Positions 1 through 63,004 are shown, counted from the stretch's first letter. The stretch: 64,000 bases of DNA from a virus (IMGVR_UViG_3300006931_000002:32001-96000); one strand, 5' to 3'. Numbers and translations are program-made. Notes: generated from the sequence alone by a model not told the origin.

Positions 1-783
1 CATCCAGCCAAGGCCGCCGCCCACCCAGTCGCCCGGGGTGAAATCGTCCGGTCCCCACACCTTCACGCCGCTGGCCTTGGCCGCTTCGATCTGGCCGCGC
101 CAGTAGCCGATCTGGTCGTCGAGTTGTGCGGCCATGCCGGTCAGCCGGTCGTGGTAGTCGCCGCCTTCGCTGGCGCCGGCCAGACGGCGGCCGATGTCGC
201 GGCGTTCCGCTTCGAGGCGTTCGACACGCCGAATCGTGGTGTGCAGGTTTTCGCGGTGCGACTGGGTAGCTTCTGCGGCGTGGGCCCGGTTCTGCCAATG
301 CTCGGCTTTGCGCACTTCGGTGGCCGACCGGTCGAGGGCGGCGCTGAGGCGTTCCCGGTCGCGTCGGGCGCGCCGCTCCGAATGGTGTCCGACGAGGATG
401 GGCTGCCCGAACGGGATGCCGTCGCTGATGAGCTGGGCCCGGTTGTAGGCCGCATCGGCACGGGTCGCAGCGTTGGTGGCGTAACCCTCGTACCGGTCGG
501 CCCGGTCGGCGGCGCGTTCGGCGCGTTCGGCCTCGACGGTGGCGGTGTCGCGGGGCGTGTCGTCGATGATGACTGTGACGTCGAAACCGGCGGCGCGTAG
601 CGCGTCGGCGGCCTGGTTGATGATGTGCCGGTCGGCCATCCGGTCGCGTGAGCCGCGGATACGCCACGCGCCGTAGCGCCAGGTGAACCGGTGGGCTTTG
701 AGAATGTCACCCGATCCGTCGCCCTTGCGGGTGCCGGCTACTTCCGTGCCGTCGGCATGCGTGTGGGTGATCGTGAGCGTCAT
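1..783 (-). CDS. DUF3560-domain protein (3' end runs out of the window)
   Basis: Manual translation from ATG 783: MTLTITHTHADGTEVAGTRKGDG...GIPFGQPILVGHHSERRARRD; RBS GAAAGGAG; missing from the ORF track because there is no stop in the window. Confidence 0.8.
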   Translation of the reverse strand, partial: MTLTITHTHADGTEVAGTRKGDGSGDILKAHRFTWRYGAWRIRGSRDRMADRHIINQAADALRAAGFDVTVIIDDTPRDTATVEAERAERAADRADRYEGYATNAATRADAAYNRAQLISDGIPFGQPILVGHHSERRARRDRERLSAALDRSATEVRKAEHWQNRAHAAEATQSHRENLHTTIRRVERLEAERRDIGRRLAGASEGGDYHDRLTGMAAQLDDQIGYWRGQIEAAKASGVKVWGPDDFTPGDWVGGGLGWM

Positions 784-31412: not shown

Positions 31413-32924
31413 GTGCAGCCCAAGACCAACCGCGCCCTGAAACGCATCGTCATCTACTGCCGCATCTCCCAGGACCGCACAGGCGCGGGACTGGGCGTCG
31501 AACGGCAAGACGCCGCATGCAGGGAACTGCTCGCCCGGCTCGGCTTCACAGAGGCAGAGATCGCCGCCGCCGTGGTACTCATCGACAACGACATGTCTGC
31601 GACCAGGCGTCGCAAACCCCGGCCTGGCTATCGGCGCCTGCTCGAAGGGCTGCGGCAGCGCCAGTGGGATGTCCTCGCCACCTTGCACAACGACCGGCTG
31701 CTTCGGAACAACCGGGAGCTGGAAGACTTCATCGCCGTCGTCGAAGCGAACCCGCTGCGGATCGTCACCGTCCTTGCCGGCGAGTATGACCTGGCGACGG
31801 CGACGGGCAGGATGACAGCCCGCATCGTGGGCGCGGTCGCACAGAAGGAAGCCGAGCAGGAAGCCGAACGGCTTCGGGAGCAGAGAAGGCAGGCAGCCGA
31901 GATGGGGCGGCTACATGGCGGCCGGCGACCGTTCGGCTGGGGTGCAGAAGTCGGCAAAGGTACAGACGGGGCGCCGCTGATTGACCGGTCGCGGCCACAT
32001 CCACTGGAGGCGTCGCTGATCCGCGAGGCGGCGGTGGATGTGCTTCACTCCGGGACAACGTGGGGTGCGGTCGCCCGGCGCTGGAACCAGGCCGATGTTC
32101 TGACCCCGTTCGGCAACCGGTGGACCGGGCAGACGGTGATGCAGACCTTGACCGCGCCCCGGCACGCCGGCCTGACCATCATCAGACCAGACGATCCGGA
32201 CGGAGCCGTCACCTACGGCCACGCCAAGACGTCAATCATCACTCCAGAGCAGCATCATGCGCTGGTCGAGTTGACCCGCGTGCCAGCTCGTCGGGCGATC
32301 ACACCCCGCGGCCGGGTTCATCTGCTGTCGGGGATCGCGCGCTGCGGCGCTGAGAACTGTGAGATGCCTGTCCAGGTTGCCGGCACCGATCGGGCTGGCC
32401 GTCCGGTGTATGGCTGTGGGGGACGCCGCCCAGGGATTCCGCATCGTGGGCATGCGAACCGGCCGACGGCTCTGGTAGAGGAAGCGGTGACCCGGCTGGT
32501 CTGTGCTCGGCTGGCTCGCTCAGATGCGGTGATGTTGCTGACACCTGACGACGGCCCGGCGAAGATCGCGGCGGAGGAGGCTCGGCAAGTACGGGAACGA
32601 CGGAAAAGGGCCGCAGCGCGGTGGATGCTGGGCGAGTTGGACGACGACGAGTGGGCCGCGGTGAAGGCCGAGGCTGACCCGCTGTTGGCTGATTTGGAGC
32701 GGCGGGCCGCCCCACCGCCTGCCGCGCTGATCTTTGAGGGGCTTGTCGGCTTGGGATCGCTGGGGGCGACGCGGAAGGCGTGGGACGCGATCGGCGACTT
32801 GGACCGTCGCCGGACGGTTGTGGACGCGCTGCTGTGGATCACGATCCTGCCGACTGGACGGTGGGGTGTGGCCTCGACTGACGGCGGCTCGGCGGCGTGG
32901 CTGCGGTACGGCTGGAAGCTTTGA
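31413..32924 (+). CDS. int: large serine recombinase (integrase)
   Basis: IYCRIS catalytic Ser, DRLLR, PFGW recombinase domain, LLSGIARCG zinc ribbon. Confidence 0.93.
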   Translation: MQPKTNRALKRIVIYCRISQDRTGAGLGVERQDAACRELLARLGFTEAEIAAAVVLIDNDMSATRRRKPRPGYRRLLEGLRQRQWDVLATLHNDRLLRNNRELEDFIAVVEANPLRIVTVLAGEYDLATATGRMTARIVGAVAQKEAEQEAERLREQRRQAAEMGRLHGGRRPFGWGAEVGKGTDGAPLIDRSRPHPLEASLIREAAVDVLHSGTTWGAVARRWNQADVLTPFGNRWTGQTVMQTLTAPRHAGLTIIRPDDPDGAVTYGHAKTSIITPEQHHALVELTRVPARRAITPRGRVHLLSGIARCGAENCEMPVQVAGTDRAGRPVYGCGGRRPGIPHRGHANRPTALVEEAVTRLVCARLARSDAVMLLTPDDGPAKIAAEEARQVRERRKRAAARWMLGELDDDEWAAVKAEADPLLADLERRAAPPPAALIFEGLVGLGSLGATRKAWDAIGDLDRRRTVVDALLWITILPTGRWGVASTDGGSAAWLRYGWKL

Positions 32925-47072: not shown

Positions 47073-47386
47073 CAACGCTGATCCTCTGGTGTGCCGGCGT
47101 CGCCTTGGTCTGTGCCGCCGCGGTCGCTTACCTCTGCCGGGCAAACCACCGGGTCACACGTTCCCGCCAGCGCCTGGACGCCGCAATGATCGTCGCCGAA
47201 GCGGAGGCGAAAAGGCGGTGGCGCCACCATCTGACCGATGATCCGTTCGCCTTCTCCGACGCGGAGGTGGACGTCATCATCGCCCAGGTGTTCGGCATGG
47301 ACCCGACGCAGATGCGGGCGGAGGCGCGGCGGCAGAACCGCGAGGAGTTCGGCCGGGTTGCCAAGAAAGACGGGGAGAAGCCGTGA
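47069..47386 (+). CDS. membrane-anchored hypothetical protein
   Basis: N-terminal TM helix. Confidence 0.55.
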   Translation: MTTLILWCAGVALVCAAAVAYLCRANHRVTRSRQRLDAAMIVAEAEAKRRWRHHLTDDPFAFSDAEVDVIIAQVFGMDPTQMRAEARRQNREEFGRVAKKDGEKP

Positions 47387-47775
47387 GCGCCCGCATACCA
47401 GACTCGACCCTCCGCTCCTGTGACCATCCGGGCTGCGAGGCAACCTTCGACGCGGCAGGCAGGGCCGAACCGGGCTGGGTCCAGGTCCCGTCCCGCAACG
47501 ACCACTACTGTCCAAAGCACCACGACTCGCCGGTACCCGCAGCAACACGCCGGCTGATCGACCGTCACGGTGCCGACTGGAGGACCGACCTTGGCGGCCT
47601 TCATCCGGATCTGCTGTGGGACTACGAGGACGTCCGTGACTTCCTGATCGCCTGCCCAACGCCGTCGTTGCTTTGGCAGCGGGCACTGTTGGAAGCCTTG
47701 CGGGTGATGAACGATGAGATCTCTGATCAGGTGGTCTTCGACTTCCTCGATGGCGGCGACGAGGAGCCGCTATGA
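47383..47775 (+). CDS. hypothetical Zn-binding protein
   Basis: CDHPGC...GW...YCPKH. Confidence 0.55.
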   Translation: MSARIPDSTLRSCDHPGCEATFDAAGRAEPGWVQVPSRNDHYCPKHHDSPVPAATRRLIDRHGADWRTDLGGLHPDLLWDYEDVRDFLIACPTPSLLWQRALLEALRVMNDEISDQVVFDFLDGGDEEPL

Positions 47776-56850: not shown

Positions 56851-57084
56851 ATGCGTCCTGCGGGCATGCTCGTCTTGGAAGAGATCGCGATCTGGCTGGG
56901 TCCGCCGTACTGGCCCAACACGACCCGGTGTAAATCCACCTACCGGCTGTTGCTGCGCGAGGGCATCGCCCCGGCGGTCAGAGGCCACCAGCGGAAACCC
57001 TCTCTCTGGCGCTTCGTCGACCTCGAACCCCTCAAGGACCTCGTCCCCAGTGCCCGCTACGACGACGAATGGGAGGCGGCATGA
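56851..57084 (+). CDS. small DNA-binding-like protein
   Basis: RBS GGAGG. Confidence 0.5.
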   Translation: MRPAGMLVLEEIAIWLGPPYWPNTTRCKSTYRLLLREGIAPAVRGHQRKPSLWRFVDLEPLKDLVPSARYDDEWEAA

Positions 57085-57241
57085 CCGAGACCGCCGAGCT
57101 TGGCTCGTTCGCCGCGGCGTGGGCTGAGGCGCTTCGTACCGCCCGTTCCCGCCCCGTCTGTGGCCAGTGTGACCAGCCGTGGGACGCGGAACCCTGCGGG
57201 GCCATGCACGCCGTGGTGGCGACCGAACCGGCGGTCGAGGT

Positions 57242-57424
57242 TCACCCTTCCGCCTGACGGGCGAGTTTCGCCGCGTGGCGTGCACGGTTTCCGTACTCCC
57301 GGCGCCGGCCGTGTGCCTCCTGGAACTCGGCCAGCGCCTTTCTGCGCCGGCGGACCCGTTCGATTCGGGCTGCTACCCGGGCGTCGACAATCGCCCCCAC
57401 GTCTACATCAACCGAAACGTTCAT
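57242..57424 (-). CDS. small basic protein downstream of tRNA-like RNA
   Basis: 60 aa, Arg-rich helix. Confidence 0.5.
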   Translation of the reverse strand: MNVSVDVDVGAIVDARVAARIERVRRRRKALAEFQEAHGRRREYGNRARHAAKLARQAEG

Positions 57425-57464
57425 ACGTTGATCATCGCATGAACGGTCCAGTCTTTTTGCACTG

Positions 57465-57576
57465 CACCACCGGGCGGGGATTGAACCCGCGCGCTCCTGT
57501 CCCCGAACGGGTGCGACGCCATGGCCGGTCACGGTCCCGCCTTCGCCGGGTGCTCTACCGCTGAGCTACCGGGGTG
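57465..57576 (-). ncRNA. tRNA-like RNA with expanded anticodon arm
   Basis: TA-GCTC-AGCGGTA-GAGC D-arm; GCGGG-TTCAATC-CCCGC T-arm; CACCCCGG/CCGGTGGTG closing stem; about 60 nt between D and T arms. Confidence 0.65.
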
Positions 57577-57630
57577 TTGTGGGCGCCGCCCGGTGGGTTT
57601 GTTCGTCGCGATCGCCCGTCGGATGGGCGG

Positions 57631-57677
57631 CACCTGCACCCACTCTACCAGCGGAAACGCGGTAGAATGGGCAGGTG
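57631..57677. promoter_or_regulatory. symmetric bidirectional promoter
   Basis: Imperfect inverted repeat carrying TAGAAT (+, 57663) and TAGAGT (-, 57647). Confidence 0.5.
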
Positions 57678-57860
57678 GAAGAAGCTCGGTATCAGCTCAT
57701 CGTCGATGAGCGTGACCCCAATACGGTGACTGTGGTGGACCGGGTTGGCGAACGGCTCCCCAATGGGCACCGAAGGCACGCCAAGGGCTGTTCCCGCCGA
57801 CTCAAGACCCGCTGGTCTGGGATGCGCTGCGACTGTGGCGCCCGTTGGCAGTGCTACTAG
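57675..57860 (+). CDS. small Cys/His protein
   Basis: Leaderless-type start; H...C...CDC. Confidence 0.5.
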   Translation: MEEARYQLIVDERDPNTVTVVDRVGERLPNGHRRHAKGCSRRLKTRWSGMRCDCGARWQCY

Positions 57861-57875
57861 GCGCGGGGGTCTGAC

Positions 57876-58154
57876 ATGCCGTGGATCAACAGGATTCGCG
57901 AGTCGACACATCCGGCTTCACGATGCAAGAAGCCGCCCGTCGGCGGATTTGCCGCCGGCTCGGTGTTCGAGTGTGACGACTGCAAACGCCACTGGCGCTT
58001 CGACGGTCCCGGACAGCAAGACTGGACCGAGCTTCCTTCCGGTGCTTCCGACCCGGCTGAGACATGGTCGAACCTTCTCGTCGACCTCGACGAAGACGAG
58101 GCAACTGAGAAGCTGACAGCGTTCCTGACCGGCCCGGCATCCGACCAGCCGTGA
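57876..58154 (+). CDS. hypothetical Zn-binding protein
   Basis: H..C.KP...GSVFECDDC..W. Confidence 0.55.
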   Translation: MPWINRIRESTHPASRCKKPPVGGFAAGSVFECDDCKRHWRFDGPGQQDWTELPSGASDPAETWSNLLVDLDEDEATEKLTAFLTGPASDQP

Positions 58155-58964: not shown

Positions 58965-60578
58965 ATGTCGCTCCTGCCCGACGACCTCGTTGCCGCGTTT
59001 GAACTGGCCGCCGATGCGCTCGACGTCGACTCCCGCCAGCAGCAGTACCGCACCAACCCGGCGATGTGGATCGCCGACCGGCTCGACGAGTATCTGTGGT
59101 CCAAGCAGGTCGACATCCTGACCGCGCTGACCCGACACCGCCGCGTCGCGGTCAAGTCGTGCCACGGTGCTGGGAAGTCGCACACTGCCTCCCGGGCGGT
59201 GGCGTGGTGGCTGTCAATCTGGCCGCCTGGTACTGCGTTTGTCGTCACGACCGCGCCGACGGCCAAGCAGGTTGAGGCGATCCTGTGGCGGTACATCGGG
59301 CAGGCCGCGAAGAAGGCTGACGCTGCGGGGAAGCCGCTCGTCGGCCGCGTTCTCACCACAGAGTGGAAGATCGACACCGAGCTGATCGCGTTCGGCCGGA
59401 AGCCCGCCGACTACGACACCGAGGCGTTCCAGGGCATCCACGCCGAACACGTCCTCGTCGTCATCGACGAGGCGTCGGGTGTGCCCGAGCAGTTGTGGAC
59501 CGCGGCCGACTCGTTGACGTCGAACGATGGCTGCGCACTGCTGGCGATCGGTAACCCGGCCGACCCGGCGTCATACTTCGCCAGGGCCTGCGAGTCATGG
59601 CACACGATCACCATCTCGGCGTTCGACACACCCAACCTGACCGGCGAGAAGGTCCCCGACCAGCTCCGCAAGGTGCTCGTCTCCAAGTCGTGGGTTGAGG
59701 AGAAGCGCACCGACTGGGGTGAGGACTCCCCCCTGTGGTCGGAGAAGGTTCTCGGCGAGTTCCCCACCGACGCCTCCGACCAGGTCGTCCGCTCCTCGGA
59801 CCTCGCGAAGTGCCGGCAACCCAGCGACCGGGTGTACGCCCCGTCGGATCTGCTGCCCGTCGTCCTCGGCGTCGACGTTGGCGGCGGCGGCGACGAGACG
59901 GTGATCCGGGAGCGCCGCGGCCGGATGGTCGGACGCGAATGGCGGGACCGGAACGACAACACGATGACCGTCGTCAACAACGTGCTCCACGCGATCGAGG
60001 TAACCGGGGCGACGCTGGTCAACGTCGACTCGATCGGCATCGGCGCCGGCGTGTGCGACCGGCTGAACGAGCTACGCGACCAGGGCAAGCATGCCGCCAC
60101 CATCGTGGGTGTGAACGTCGGCCAGGCCGCGACCGACACCGAGCGGTTCGCGAACCTGCGGGCCGAACTGTGGTGGGTCATAGGCCGGCTGGGCTCCGAG
60201 CGGGGCGAATGGGACCTTGCCCCGGCCGAGTACTCGACTGACGGGGTGTGGCTGTCCGGGATGGAAAACCCGGATGCGGCGTGCGCCCAGTTGCTGGCGC
60301 CGAAGTGGTTTGCGGACATCAAGGGCCGCATCCAGATCGAGAAGAAGGACGAGGTCCGTAAGCGGCTGGGCCGCAGCCCGGACAACGCCGACGCTCTCCT
60401 TCTGTCGTTCGTCGACCTGCGCGGCGGCACGCAGTTCTTCATGGACCAGTGGTTCGCCCAAGAGGACGCCGCCGGCCCGAAGCCGCAGCTTCCGCCCGAT
60501 GAGACCCCGGCCCCGTTGGGCATCGAAGACCTGTTCCCCGGCCAGACCTCACAGGACGGGTGGCGGAGGCCGCTGTGA
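58965..60578 (+). CDS. terL: terminase large subunit
   Basis: SCHGAGKS, VIDEASG, IGNP, GVDVG..GD, SPDNADA. Confidence 0.93.
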   Translation: MSLLPDDLVAAFELAADALDVDSRQQQYRTNPAMWIADRLDEYLWSKQVDILTALTRHRRVAVKSCHGAGKSHTASRAVAWWLSIWPPGTAFVVTTAPTAKQVEAILWRYIGQAAKKADAAGKPLVGRVLTTEWKIDTELIAFGRKPADYDTEAFQGIHAEHVLVVIDEASGVPEQLWTAADSLTSNDGCALLAIGNPADPASYFARACESWHTITISAFDTPNLTGEKVPDQLRKVLVSKSWVEEKRTDWGEDSPLWSEKVLGEFPTDASDQVVRSSDLAKCRQPSDRVYAPSDLLPVVLGVDVGGGGDETVIRERRGRMVGREWRDRNDNTMTVVNNVLHAIEVTGATLVNVDSIGIGAGVCDRLNELRDQGKHAATIVGVNVGQAATDTERFANLRAELWWVIGRLGSERGEWDLAPAEYSTDGVWLSGMENPDAACAQLLAPKWFADIKGRIQIEKKDEVRKRLGRSPDNADALLLSFVDLRGGTQFFMDQWFAQEDAAGPKPQLPPDETPAPLGIEDLFPGQTSQDGWRRPL

Positions 60579-60871: not shown

Positions 60872-63004
60872 ATGTCCTCCCGTAGCCGTCGCCGCGCCCA
60901 GCAGCGCCGCCGCCTCGACAAGGCCAGCTACGCGGCCGGCGCCCGTGCGATTGGCGCGCAAACCCGGGACATGTCCGCGCAGGCCAATGCCCTAGCAACG
61001 ATGCAGTCCGGGATGCCGATCGGATCCTACGAGCCGCTTCCCCGCGAGCTGCCCTACACGGTGCCGTTCGGCCCGCTGACCCCCCTGCCGCCCTACGGCA
61101 TCGACCCGCTACGGCCTGATGGCCGCAGTGATCCGCGGGCCTGGGAATATCCGGTCGGCTGGAACATTCCAGGCGGCGAACACAGGCTCATCCCGTTCGA
61201 CACGCTACGGGCGGCAGCGCGGACCGACATCGTCCAGGACTGCATGCGGGTCATACGGACGGAAATCTGCGGCCTCGACTGGGGTATCGCCGTTTCTGAG
61301 GATGCGATCGCCACTGCGGCCGAGTTGGGTGGGCTGCGGCAGACGGAGGCGAAGCAGCAGCTCCGCGAGAAGCTGGCCCCGCAGATCGCGAAGGCCCGGG
61401 ACTTCTGGCAGATGCCCGACCCGCGTGAGGGGCTGTCCTTCTCGGACTGGCTGTGGATCGGCCTCGAAGAAGTGTTGACATTGGATGCGTGGCCGCTGTT
61501 CCCGCAGCTGACCTACGGCAACGAACTGTTCGCACTGTGGAACATCGACGGCAGTGTCATTAAGCCGCTGTTGGACGGCTACGGCCGCCGGCCCGAACCT
61601 CCGGACCCCGCCTTCCAAGAGATCATGTATGGCTTCCCTCGGGGCGAGTACAAGGCTCCGGTCGGGAATGACGGCACCGTCGAGGGCGGGCGCACCGCCG
61701 ACGAGCTGATCTACAACGTTCGGAACAAGCGGGTCCACTCCCCCTACGGCTTCGGCCCGGTTGAGAACGCCTTGGTGCGGATCAACCTGTGGATGAAGCG
61801 CGCCGAGTGGATGACCCGCCAGTTCGACTCGTCCGCGCTGCCCCTGGCACTCATGGAACTTCCGGAGACGGTCCGGATGACTCCGGATGAGATGCAACGC
61901 TGGCGCCGGTCGATCAACACCCAGCTTGCCGGGGATCTCGCGGAGCGGCAGCGGATTCAGATCGGCCTGCCAGGTGGGAAGCTCGCGAAGTTCGCGGACA
62001 ACTCGGAGCTGTACAAGCCCGAGTACGACACGTACATCGTCAAGCTGATCTGCGCGTCGTTTCAGGTGACCCCGGCGGAGATCGGGTTCATCGAAACCGG
62101 CGGACTGGGTGGGGCGAGCTATCACGAGGGTCAGGAGAACATCCAGTACCGGAAGATGATCCTGCCGTGGGCGAAGTGGCTGTCCGGCATCTTCAACATG
62201 ATCAACCGCCGGTATCTGGGTTTGGACCCGGCGATCGAGTTCCGCTTCCTCGGATTGGAAGAAGAAGACGAAGCCGCCGCCGACGCGGTCCTTCTGTCCC
62301 GCGTCGAATCGGGCCGGATGACGTTGAACGAGGCCCGCGACGAGATGGGCCTAGCCCCCTATGCGGACATGCCCGAAGCAGACGAACCCTACATCCTGTC
62401 GAGGATGGGCCCGCAGTTCATCCGCGGGTTGCAGGAGCAGCAGGAAGCCCAGGGTGAGGCGGTCAAGGCCGGCGCCGAGGCGGCGAAAGCGAACCTTGCG
62501 GCCGGCAACCTGCCCTCCGGCAAGCCGCTGAACACGCCGAAGGGCGAGCGGGAGGACGGCGACGAGCAGACCCCGGACGAAGGCAGCCCGGACGCCGGCT
62601 CGAAGCCCCCAGCACAGGGCAACGCGAAGTCCGGCGACACACAGAAGCCCGTGAAGGGTGCGGAGAAGTCCGCCGCGGTCGCCGAACTCGACGCCTTCGC
62701 CAACTGGGCCCGCAAGCTCGCCAAGGGGCAGACGAAGGCCCGGCCGTTCACGTTCACCGCTGTCCCTGACGAAACAGCGAAGACGTTGAACCATCTCGTC
62801 GCCGACGACTCCCCCGCCGACGCCGCAAGCCTGGCGAAGGCAACCGCGGCCGAGCTGCGCAAGGCTGGCGGTGGTGGCGGGGGGCGAGCCGAAAGCCCGC
62901 CCCCGGGATCGGGAGCGGGCAGCGTGGCTGGGCTTCCAAGCCCACGACCAGCTAGGGCCACGGATGGCCGGGCACGTCTCCCGGGCCGCATCTGGGCTTA
63001 TTGA
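60872..63004 (+). CDS. phage portal protein
   Basis: SPYGFGPVE, ICASFQVTPAEIG, MTLNEARDEMGLAP; position after terL. Confidence 0.88.
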   Translation: MSSRSRRRAQQRRRLDKASYAAGARAIGAQTRDMSAQANALATMQSGMPIGSYEPLPRELPYTVPFGPLTPLPPYGIDPLRPDGRSDPRAWEYPVGWNIPGGEHRLIPFDTLRAAARTDIVQDCMRVIRTEICGLDWGIAVSEDAIATAAELGGLRQTEAKQQLREKLAPQIAKARDFWQMPDPREGLSFSDWLWIGLEEVLTLDAWPLFPQLTYGNELFALWNIDGSVIKPLLDGYGRRPEPPDPAFQEIMYGFPRGEYKAPVGNDGTVEGGRTADELIYNVRNKRVHSPYGFGPVENALVRINLWMKRAEWMTRQFDSSALPLALMELPETVRMTPDEMQRWRRSINTQLAGDLAERQRIQIGLPGGKLAKFADNSELYKPEYDTYIVKLICASFQVTPAEIGFIETGGLGGASYHEGQENIQYRKMILPWAKWLSGIFNMINRRYLGLDPAIEFRFLGLEEEDEAAADAVLLSRVESGRMTLNEARDEMGLAPYADMPEADEPYILSRMGPQFIRGLQEQQEAQGEAVKAGAEAAKANLAAGNLPSGKPLNTPKGEREDGDEQTPDEGSPDAGSKPPAQGNAKSGDTQKPVKGAEKSAAVAELDAFANWARKLAKGQTKARPFTFTAVPDETAKTLNHLVADDSPADAASLAKATAAELRKAGGGGGGRAESPPPGSGAGSVAGLPSPRPARATDGRARLPGRIWAY

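What the first reader, a model, noticed from the sequence alone, without database searches (positions are those of the whole stretch)
57242..57677. tRNA-shaped RNA with canonical D/T elbow but a ~60-nt replaced anticodon region, in its own antisense unit with a small basic ORF
Seen: the minus strand of 57576-57465 reads CACCCCGG-TA-GCTC-AGCGGTA-GAGC-A-[CCCGGCGAAGGCGGGACCGTGACCGGCCATGGCGTCGCACCCGTTCGGGGACAGGAGCGC]-GCGGG-TTCAATC-CCCGC-CCGGTGGTG. The D-arm (U8, A9, A14, GG) and T-arm are textbook. The acceptor stem has a bulge, no CCA is encoded, and the anticodon region is a long bulged hairpin (CCC/GGG, CGAA/TTCG, CGGG/CCCG, GTGAC/GTCGC) with no 7-nt anticodon loop. It runs against the late-gene direction, is fed by the minus half of a symmetric promoter, and precedes a 60-aa Arg-rich ORF. 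Inference: keeping the elbow while losing decoding ability suggests a tRNA mimic. Options are an RNase P/RNase Z-processed regulatory RNA (C4/CI-like), a decoy for tRNA-targeting defence nucleases, or the partner of the small protein. D-before-T order argues against YrlA.
Basis: partly seen in the sequence, partly recalled or inferred. Interest (0 to 1): 0.72.

Follow-up and report, generated by a model that had tools for sequence, protein, structure and literature searches.

The report
Lone anticodon-less tRNA look-alike cassette
A soil phage carries one tRNA-derived RNA gene that cannot read codons; it lies between a fixed promoter and a small basic-protein gene, where sister phages carry a quite different folded RNA, and nothing yet shows that this copy works.

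Summary
The minus strand of 57576-57465 holds a tRNA-derived element. It scores 32.1 bits on Rfam tRNA (cut-off 29) and is the only tRNA-model hit in a complete 115-kb high-GC phage.

- **Intact parts:** the D-arm, T-arm and Levitt pair are canonical.
- **Defective parts:** the acceptor is imperfect (5 of 7 pairs, or 8 bp with a bulged U). No CCA is encoded. A 49-nt arm plus an 11-nt connector replace the anticodon arm, with no 7-nt loop and no U33.
- **The unit is real:** a TGn-TAGAGT -10 is kept in three phages, and the 60-aa ORF is under purifying selection (substitutions 3/4/18 by codon position).
- **The element is not a fixed part of that unit:** two sister phages carry an unrelated, strongly folding 163-nt RNA at exactly this place. 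That RNA is 98% conserved between them, against 46% for the leader.
- **No sign of selection on this copy:** it has no homologue anywhere. Its arm folds no better than shuffled sequence. The leader competes for its 3' strand.

It fails the tests for the phiC31-type anticodon-less tRNA-like family, YrlA, intron-bearing tRNA and tmRNA.

I put a working tRNA look-alike or processing module at about 0.45 and a recently acquired inert pseudo-tRNA at about 0.35.

This scan has already reported anticodon-less tRNA mimics in Streptomyces-type phages on other DNA. This is a weaker, solitary instance.

The parts
57465..57576 (-). tRNA-derived element. Acceptor 5' CACCCCGG 57576-57569; U8 A9 57568-57567; D-stem/loop/stem 57566-57552; A26 57551; 49-nt arm 57550-57502; 11-nt connector 57501-57491; T-stem/loop/stem 57490-57474; acceptor 3' CCGG-U-GGUG 57473-57465.
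   Evidence: RF00005 scores 32.1 bits. The cloverleaf with the 8-bp bulged acceptor is -47.5 kcal/mol against an MFE of -48.3.
57502..57550 (-). Arm that replaces the anticodon stem-loop. It has 16 predicted pairs, two internal loops and a 6-nt apical loop ACCGGC, with no 7-nt loop and no U33.
   Evidence: -21.1 kcal/mol, z=0.04 against shuffles. No similar sequence in any collection or locus.
57425..57580 (-). Exchanged cassette ('allele A', 156 nt) holding the tRNA-like element. Sister phages have an unrelated 163-nt RNA here.
   Evidence: the joint 57424|57581 has 163 other letters between its sides in run X4. Alignments; cassette 37% identical, flanks 86-92%.
57586..57596 (-). Leader segment CCACCGGGCGG, perfectly complementary to 57477-57467 (T-stem 3' strand plus acceptor 3' strand).
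   Evidence: In the 233-nt leader transcript the acceptor and T-stem pairing probabilities fall to 0.00-0.03.
57642..57650 (-). Extended -10-like motif TGGTAGAGT. It overlaps the stop of a non-coding 88-codon ORF.
   Evidence: Kept in the window, G006 (TAGGGT) and L062. Not called by the sigma-70 consensus scan. ORF88 substitutions are 8/7/8.
57418..57445 (-). Hairpin (7-10 pairs) that holds the ORF60 start codon and is followed by UUUCGGUU. It is terminator- or attenuator-like.
   Evidence: one site found, 0.7 expected by chance, so weak. Also seen in the fold.
57242..57424 (-). ORF60, a 60-aa Arg-rich protein of a small uncharacterised family.
   Evidence: substitutions 3/4/18 by codon position; homologues at 50-58% identity with a conserved core. 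No Pfam or PHROG family.
57069..57257 (+). Convergent 62-aa + strand gene that ends the upstream + operon and overlaps the ORF60 stop by 16 nt.
   Evidence: substitutions 1/0/6.
57651..57875 (.). Non-coding divergent control region, more conserved (93-97%) than the neighbouring genes.

Best explanation
The element is a tRNA-derived RNA that cannot decode. It is carried as an exchangeable cassette in the RNA position of a small antisense transcription unit: extended -10, then a roughly 55-nt leader, then the RNA cassette, then a hairpin over the start codon, then the 60-aa basic-protein gene.

Shown:
- Its tRNA ancestry.
- The loss of any anticodon loop.
- The reality of the ORF.
- The cassette-like replacement of an unrelated, highly conserved structured RNA found in the sister phages.

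Inferred:
- It is transcribed from the conserved -10 as part of a transcript of about 200 nt.
- Once the leader is removed, the 8-bp acceptor, T-arm and D/T elbow make it a substrate for tRNA end-processing (RNase P at the 5' end; RNase Z or exonucleases, then CCA addition, at the 3' end).
- This would release a stable tRNA-shaped RNA of about 110 nt and define the 5' end of the ORF60 message.
- The released RNA would act by shape, by occupying a host or defence protein that recognises the tRNA elbow or acceptor, and not by decoding.

Of the 0.45 given to this reading, about half goes to a purely cis role (processing or stability module) and half to a trans-acting look-alike or decoy.
For: - The tRNA model hit is above Rfam's cut-off and is unique in the genome.
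- Every tertiary-interaction position is intact: U8, A14, G15-C48, G18 G19, A21, G53-C61 and the T-loop UUCAAUC.
- The isolated element can adopt the cloverleaf within 0.8 kcal/mol of its MFE, with acceptor pairing probability about 0.9.
- It lies in the sense orientation in a slot that holds an RNA gene in relatives. There the 163-nt occupant folds at z=-2.9. It is 144/147 identical between two phages whose leaders are 43/94 identical and whose ORF60 genes are 139/183 identical.
- The allele persists. Contigs of two further studies hold it, one identical and one about 97% alike across 1.27 kb.
- There is precedent. Non-decoding tRNA-like genes with expanded anticodon arms are common in high-GC phage contigs. 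The phiC31-type family shows real covariation: 97.4% paired, 8 pairs with double changes, 0 of 500 shuffles reach its score.
Against: - There is no homologue of the element or its arm anywhere searched, so no covariation can be measured.
- The whole element folds no better than shuffles (z=+0.45, cloverleaf not the MFE). phiC31-type members give z=-2.0 with the cloverleaf as MFE. The arm gives z=0.04.
- The acceptor stem is imperfect, whereas nearly all other phage tRNA-likes seen have perfect 7-bp stems.
- In the primary transcript an 11-nt perfect complement in the leader out-competes the acceptor and T stems.
- The acquisition is recent, so the intact elbow needs no selection to explain it.
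- The phage encodes no Ro60, RtcB or CCA-adding enzyme.
- There is no expression data.
Confidence: 0.45

Rival explanations
1. It is an inert pseudo-tRNA. A tRNA or tRNA-like gene was damaged by rearrangement in its anticodon and variable region. It arrived by the same mosaic recombination that patterns this whole region, and displaced the resident structured RNA. It is transcribed only as passenger leader sequence, if at all.
For: - It is a one-off with no relatives.
- The acceptor has two mismatches, the connector is an odd 11 nt, and the arm is at chance-level stability.
- Leader pairing competes with the cloverleaf.
- The neighbourhood is a patchwork of blocks at more than 90% and about 50% identity between sister phages.
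- Relatives G001-G004 have no RF00005 hit at all; sister phage G006 has only a sub-threshold one (17.4 bits).
- The nearest normal tRNAs sharing its T-arm and 3' acceptor 21-mer are tRNA-Ile(UAU) genes, one with a 9-nt variable loop. A plausible parent type therefore exists.
Against: - It replaced an RNA that is the most conserved piece of the unit in the sisters, yet the lineage persists in samples from 2017 to 2025.
- It is in the sense orientation.
- All elbow positions are intact, though recent arrival weakens this point.
Confidence: 0.35
2. It is a decoding tRNA interrupted by a short intron that is removed to give a working tRNA (ARAGORN's tRNA-Gly(acc) with a 32-nt intron).
For: Short inserts at the anticodon loop occur in many viral tRNA genes.
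Against: - Bacterial tRNA introns are self-splicing group I introns of about 200 nt or more (PMC3984707, title and abstract; size from my own knowledge). Here the insert is 32-39 nt.
- No placement of the intron leaves U33 and a purine at 37.
- There is no bulge-helix-bulge motif: the internal loops are symmetric 3x3 and 2x2.
- The phage has no RtcB.
- The acceptor stem is mismatched.
Confidence: 0.03
3. It acts as DNA: a tRNA-like attachment or recombination site for one of the phage's recombinases or for a satellite element.
For: tRNA genes are common integration targets (PMC10865867). First-stage notes report recombinase genes elsewhere in this genome (not checked by me). The cassette has sharp exchange boundaries.
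Against: - It is at least 6 kb from the recombinase genes noted.
- Both tRNA halves are present, not only the 3' part typical of attP.
- No matching host tRNA or repeat was found.
Confidence: 0.05
4. The stretch is protein-coding and the tRNA resemblance is incidental. Candidate frames are the 96-codon GTG extension of ORF60 at 57242-57532 or the + ORF at 57100-57564.
For: Open frames cross it on both strands.
Against: - Substitutions in the + ORF fall 3/20/4 by its codon position, which is ORF60's third position.
- The N-terminal extension is not kept in sister phages, where the gene is called at 63 aa.
- The tRNA model E-value is 3.7e-6 for the genome.
Confidence: 0.02

Closest known systems
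phiC31-type anticodon-less tRNA-like RNAs of Streptomyces phages. Unannotated in phiC31 NC_001978.3 at 31424-31510; 'tRNA-OTHER' in AbbeyMikolon; 'tRNA-Gly' in Lilbooboo.
   Same: The D-arm is identical or differs at one or two D-loop positions (GCUC-AGCGGUA-GAGC; GCUC-ARCGGNA-GAGC across the family). The T-arm is canonical. The anticodon loop is replaced by an enlarged non-decoding arm. No CCA is encoded. It stands alone between protein genes and not in a tRNA array.
   Different: Family members have perfect 7-bp acceptors, a 4-bp covarying anticodon stem, a self-complementary hexamer at arm offset 7, a GNRA- or UUCG-capped hairpin and a 5-nt variable loop. They score 70-110 bits on the family model. 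The window element has none of these and scores 39 bits, like ordinary tRNAs.
YrlA / bacterial and phage Y RNAs (Rfam RF02553; Chen et al. 2014, PMC4201824)
   Same: A tRNA elbow (D/T mimic) joined to a long helix where the anticodon arm would be. Non-decoding.
   Different: YrlA is circularly permuted (T-arm before D-arm) and works with Ro60/Rsr. Here the order is D then T, there is no RF02553 hit, and the genome has no TROVE gene. A YrlA-like hit does occur in Streptomyces phage HaugeAnator.
tRNA-like processing modules: mascRNA/MALAT1 and the MHV68 TMER tRNA-like RNAs, and tRNAs co-transcribed with mRNAs (from my own knowledge, not tested)
   Same: A tRNA-shaped element inside a longer transcript could be cut out by RNase P and RNase Z, setting the ends of the neighbouring RNA.
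   Different: Those are eukaryotic or herpesviral. Processing has not been shown here, and the leader competes with the acceptor stem.
P1 C4 / P4 CI antisense RNAs, processed by RNase P
   Same: A small RNA gene upstream of the genes it shares a transcript with, in a phage control unit.
   Different: C4 and CI act through loops complementary to downstream targets. I made no dedicated search for such complementarity. A word-9 self-BLAST of the 156-nt cassette against the genome gave only chance-level matches of at most 16 nt.

Membership tests
Canonical tRNA (Rfam RF00005) | Cloverleaf with conserved D and T arms scoring above the curated cut-off | tested here: met
   32.1 bits against 29. Sole hit in the genome.
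Canonical tRNA (Rfam RF00005) | 5-bp anticodon stem with a 7-nt loop, U33 and a purine at 37 | tested here: not met
   A 49-nt arm with a 6-nt apical loop. ARAGORN's forced model has G33.
Canonical tRNA (Rfam RF00005) | Fully paired 7-bp acceptor stem | tested here: not met
   A1-G72 and C3-U70 are mismatched. The alternative is 8 bp with a bulged U.
Intron-bearing tRNA | A group I ribozyme core, or a bulge-helix-bulge motif with a ligase available | tested here: not met
   The insert is 32-39 nt. The internal loops are symmetric. No Rfam intron hit. No RtcB in the phage.
phiC31-type anticodon-less tRNA-like family | Self-complementary hexamer at arm offset 7 | tested here: not met
   18 of the 19 top members have one, in five different sequences. 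The window has GAAGGC there. Its GCCATGGC elsewhere is at chance level, P=0.39.
phiC31-type anticodon-less tRNA-like family | Family covariance-model score in the member range | tested here: not met
   39.0 bits, against 70-110 for members and 34-50 for ordinary tRNAs.
YrlA / Y RNA (RF02553) | Permuted order (T-arm before D-arm), a model hit and a Ro60/TROVE partner gene | tested here: not met
   D before T. No hit at E up to 10. No PF05731 in the genome.
tmRNA | tRNA-like domain plus a tag reading frame | tested here: not met
   ARAGORN with -m finds none. No Rfam tmRNA hit.
RNase P-processed phage antisense RNAs (C4/CI type) | Loops complementary to a target in the same operon, and an RNase P-generated 5' end | not tested
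   Needs RNA ends. Only a generic self-BLAST was run.

The most novel reading that the evidence does not exclude
This phage lineage has an 'RNA cassette slot'. Between a fixed promoter and a fixed small basic-protein gene, unrelated structured RNAs (a tRNA look-alike here, a 163-nt rod-and-hairpin RNA in the sisters) are exchanged as discrete modules. The modules could be alternative RNA baits against different host RNA- or tRNA-directed functions. The tRNA-shaped one would add a solitary, non-array form to the undescribed class of anticodon-less tRNA mimics of actinophages.
Probability: 0.15. Interest if true: 0.75.

Novelty: new variant of a known kind. Interest (0 to 1): 0.42.

Why it matters
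If it works, it would show that tRNA-shaped non-decoding RNAs in actinophages can sit outside tRNA arrays and Ro60 loci, as swappable modules of a small control unit. It would also give a simple two-allele natural experiment (tRNA-like against unrelated RNA, same promoter and same downstream gene) for asking what such RNAs do.

If it is inert, it is a clean example of how tRNA-like hits above Rfam's cut-off can be recombination debris. That is a caution against reading an intact elbow as evidence of selection.

Tried and rejected
- **Rfam at gathering thresholds** over the whole window missed the element because of its filters. It appears only in the local E-value search.
- **Searches for relatives of the element that found nothing useful:**
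  - blastn against 50,697 phage records, 551-nt query.
  - D-arm/T-arm gapped patterns in IMG/VR (only unrelated intron-type or tandem tRNAs), in JGI metagenomes (0) and in GTDB genomes (0).
  - Arm blast against all fetched loci.
  - Look-up among the scan's own findings by sequence (own stretch only).
- **Relatives of the phage:** the nearest are at 68% (L002) and 64% TerL identity, apart from sister genomes found through flank anchors. TerL in genome contigs gave nothing.
- **Closed or limited tools:**
  - No RNA holder was listed among the sequencing runs.
  - Read laying does not print the 163 replaced letters or all of X2's differences, so variation inside allele A in X2 is unknown.
- **The second metagenome scan**, with an allele-B 27-mer, returned only the two known sister contigs.
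- **Allele B** has no match in phage records or Rfam.
- **ORF60:**
  - No Pfam or PHROG family.
  - The Atlas gives only unnamed clusters below 0.9.
  - No relation to phiC31 gp13 or gp14.
- **The palindrome idea** for the window's arm was rejected (P=0.39).
- **Weak tRNA-like hits in G006**, about 650 nt from the slot (17.4 and 16.7 bits), did not hold up in Rfam.
- **The phiC31 genome paper** of 1999 is not in the library. Literature searches found no description of these RNAs.

Full report
**Where the window lies.** The window is bases 32001-96000 of a 115,477-bp IMG/VR virus record with direct terminal repeats, rated complete, at about 67% G+C. TerL (58965-60578) and the portal gene (60872-63004) follow a phrog_3678 gene (58345-890). 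The closest cultured TerL relatives are Arthrobacter, Streptomyces and Microbacterium phages at 35-40% identity. Many Streptomyces prophage proteins lie at 55-57%. This is an uncultured actinophage from soil or rhizosphere.

**The observation.**
- Rfam's tRNA model matches 57466-57575(-) at 32.1 bits, above the curated 29, with 47 nt inserted at the anticodon loop.
- It is the only RF00005 candidate in the whole genome (E=3.7e-6).
- ARAGORN sees it only with introns allowed. It then calls tRNA-Gly(acc) with a 32-nt 'intron', a loop without U33 and an 11-nt variable region.
- All elbow and core positions are canonical: U8, A14, G15-C48, G18 G19, A21, G53-C61 and the T-loop UUCAAUC.
- The acceptor is 5 of 7 pairs, or 8 bp with a bulged U. 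No CCA is encoded.
That fold is exactly what shuffled sequence of this composition gives (z=0.04).
- The whole element also folds no better than shuffles (z=+0.45). The cloverleaf with the 8-bp acceptor lies only 0.8 kcal/mol above the MFE.

**The unit.** I used substitutions against a sister phage as a coding test.
- ORF60 (57424-57242) gives 3/4/18 by codon position, so it is a real gene.
- The convergent + ORF at 57069-57257 gives 1/0/6 and is also real.
- The 88-codon minus ORF at 57645-57911 gives 8/7/8 and is not coding.
- The + ORF that crosses the element gives 3/20/4, which merely mirrors ORF60.
- A + gene probably starts at 57876 (23/23/41).
- Stretch 57651-57875 is non-coding yet 93-97% conserved.
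- An extended -10-like TGGTAGAGT (57650-57642) is kept in all three related phages. The sigma-70 consensus scan calls nothing, so 'symmetric promoter' remains unshown.
- A hairpin at 57445-57418 holds the ORF60 start codon and is followed by UUUCGGUU.
- ORF60 belongs to a small uncharacterised family with a conserved Arg/His-rich core and no Pfam or PHROG assignment.

**The decisive comparison.**
- The nearest relative at 68% protein identity (L002) has a different, shorter gene-filled spacer and no tRNA signal anywhere in its 92 kb.
- Laying contigs of four metagenomes on the region gave two kinds of result:
  - One run holds a 1.27-kb piece about 97% alike straight across the element, and another holds identical pieces.
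  - A third holds a 24.5-kb contig that matches both flanks but has 163 other letters in place of 57425-57580.
- Flank anchors then fetched two sister genomes: G006 (115,125 bp) and L062 (99,986 bp).
- Both keep the -10 and ORF60. In place of the tRNA-like cassette both carry an unrelated 163-nt sequence that gives no tRNA or Rfam hit.
- That sequence folds strongly (z=-2.9; 11-bp closing stem, GNRA-capped hairpin).
- Identity counts:

| Pair | Leader | Cassette | ORF60 |
|---|---|---|---|
| G006 vs L062 | 43/94 | 144/147 | 139/183 |
| Window vs G006 | 67/73 | 55/147 | 158/183 |

- The slot therefore holds an RNA gene that behaves as a discrete, exchangeable cassette.
- Because both sisters, including the more distant one, carry the 163-nt form, the tRNA-like form is most simply a recent replacement in the window's lineage.

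An intact elbow beside a lost anticodon would suggest selection only if there had been time to decay. With flanks 92-97% identical to a phage that lacks the element, there has not. No homologue of the element or of its arm exists in any collection I could search, so covariation cannot be measured. Two features argue for degeneracy:
- The acceptor is mismatched, while nearly every other phage tRNA-like I saw has a perfect one.
- An 11-nt leader segment (57596-57586) is perfectly complementary to the T-stem and acceptor 3' strand (57477-57467). It abolishes both stems in the predicted fold of the primary transcript.

ORF60 is not a dedicated partner. It follows the other cassette in the sisters. 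A distant homologue in another phage has no tRNA-like element within 1.5 kb on either side.

**Precedent.**
- A low-stringency blast of the element against phage records hit its D-arm in Streptomyces phages at unannotated places. This led to a conserved tRNA-like gene between gp13 and gp14 of phiC31 (NC_001978.3 31424-31510, unannotated).
- The same gene occurs in phiBT1, Vash, Euratis, Samora, RemusLoopin, Heather and Sebastisaurus. It is annotated tRNA-Gly in Lilbooboo and tRNA-OTHER in AbbeyMikolon.
- On ten sequences, the cloverleaf plus an inner hairpin is 97.4% paired. Eight pairs show changes on both sides, and the covariation score is reached by 0 of 500 shuffles. GNRA and UUCG tetraloops are interchanged.
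- With IMG/VR members added, 18 of the 19 top members carry a self-complementary hexamer at the same arm position, in five versions: CCCGGG, TCCGGA, CCTAGG, CCATGG and GGTACC.
- Whole members fold at z=-2.0 with the cloverleaf as MFE.
- Many further high-GC phage contigs carry tRNA bodies with other enlarged arms.
- After I had made these observations, the scan's own notebook showed that the same class, including the phiC31 RNA and its self-pairing hexamer, had already been reported on other DNA. I found no description in the searchable literature.

**Membership.**
- phiC31-type family: the window element fails the tests. It has no palindromic hexamer at the defining position. It scores 39 bits on the family model, against 70-110 for members and 34-50 for plain tRNAs. 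It has no GNRA hairpin, and its acceptor is imperfect.
- YrlA: the arm order is wrong, there is no model hit, and the genome has no Ro60 gene.
- Intron-bearing tRNA: the insert is too short for group I, there is no bulge-helix-bulge motif, and there is no RtcB.
- tmRNA: no hit.
- The nearest ordinary tRNAs sharing its T-arm and 3' acceptor 21-mer are phage tRNA-Ile(UAU) genes, one with an enlarged variable loop. This is a hint at parentage, no more.

**Verdict.** The element is a real, tRNA-derived, non-decoding element sitting as one of two alternative cassettes in the RNA slot of a small antisense unit.
- I give 0.45 to the reading that it is expressed and processed into a tRNA-shaped RNA, acting either in cis (end definition or stability for the ORF60 message) or in trans (as a look-alike).
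- I give 0.35 to an inert, recently acquired pseudo-tRNA.
- The rest goes to minor rivals.
- The class is of real interest, but this copy is its weakest-supported instance.
- The more informative result here is the cassette exchange and the strongly conserved 163-nt alternative RNA.

Noticed in passing
L058:6916-7075 (+) = G006; the same in L062 about 1840-2000: The 163-nt 'allele B' RNA occupies the tRNA-like element's place in two sister phages. It folds at z=-2.9 with an 11-bp closing stem and a CCCC-GUAA-GGGG hairpin. It is 144/147 identical between phages whose leaders are 46% identical. All three differences are structure-neutral: one in a loop, one in a bulge, one G-C to G-U. No Rfam or phage-database match.
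   Followed up: partly
L066:1206-1292 (phiC31 NC_001978.3 31424-31510), with L065, L067-L073, L063, L080, L093, L117, L134, L148, L084/L119/L170: A conserved, mostly unannotated tRNA-like gene of phiC31-type Streptomyces phages. The anticodon position is taken by a self-complementary hexamer in five variants, followed by a GNRA- or UUCG-capped hairpin. Covariation is strong. This agrees with earlier reports of this scan.
   Followed up: yes
L064:546-652 (Streptomyces phage HaugeAnator, gap between tRNA-Pro and tRNA-Gly): An unannotated YrlA-like match (RF02553, 36.9 bits, below the cut-off of 69, E=1e-5) with the T-arm before the D-arm, inside a tRNA array.
   Followed up: no
L063:239-317 (Streptomyces phage AbbeyMikolon 'tRNA-OTHER Thr/Tyr'): A tRNA body whose anticodon stem is capped by a GUAA tetraloop in place of a 7-nt loop. 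This is the same CCCC-GUAA-GGGG hairpin sequence as in allele B.
   Followed up: no
L144:3367-3463 (-), L099 about 600-680 (-), L096:1498-1595: IMG/VR high-GC phage tRNA-likes with other arm designs: an anticodon stem of about 17 bp with a normal-looking 7-nt loop GUUACGA; an arm that is a 26-nt perfect palindrome; and long irregular arms. All have perfect acceptor stems.
   Followed up: no
window 47316-47415 (-): ARAGORN's default run calls a 100-nt tRNA-Arg(tct) here. Neither Rfam run supports it (no hit at gathering threshold; not among the RF00005 candidates in the genome), so it is probably a false positive.
   Followed up: partly
window 57651-57875: A non-coding stretch between the divergent units that is 93-97% identical to the sister phage, more conserved than the flanking genes. 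It is likely a shared control region for the antisense unit and the late operon.
   Followed up: partly
L058:7738-7843 (-) = G006:88652-88700 region: Two T-arm-like motifs (GGTTCGAATCC and GGTTCGAGTCC) about 650 nt from the slot on the other strand in the sister phage. The tRNA-model scores are weak (16.7-17.4 bits) and Rfam gives no support.
   Followed up: partly
window 57435-57421 (-): A four-codon upstream ORF (MINV*) whose stop overlaps the ORF60 start (GTATGA), inside the hairpin that sequesters the start codon.
   Followed up: no
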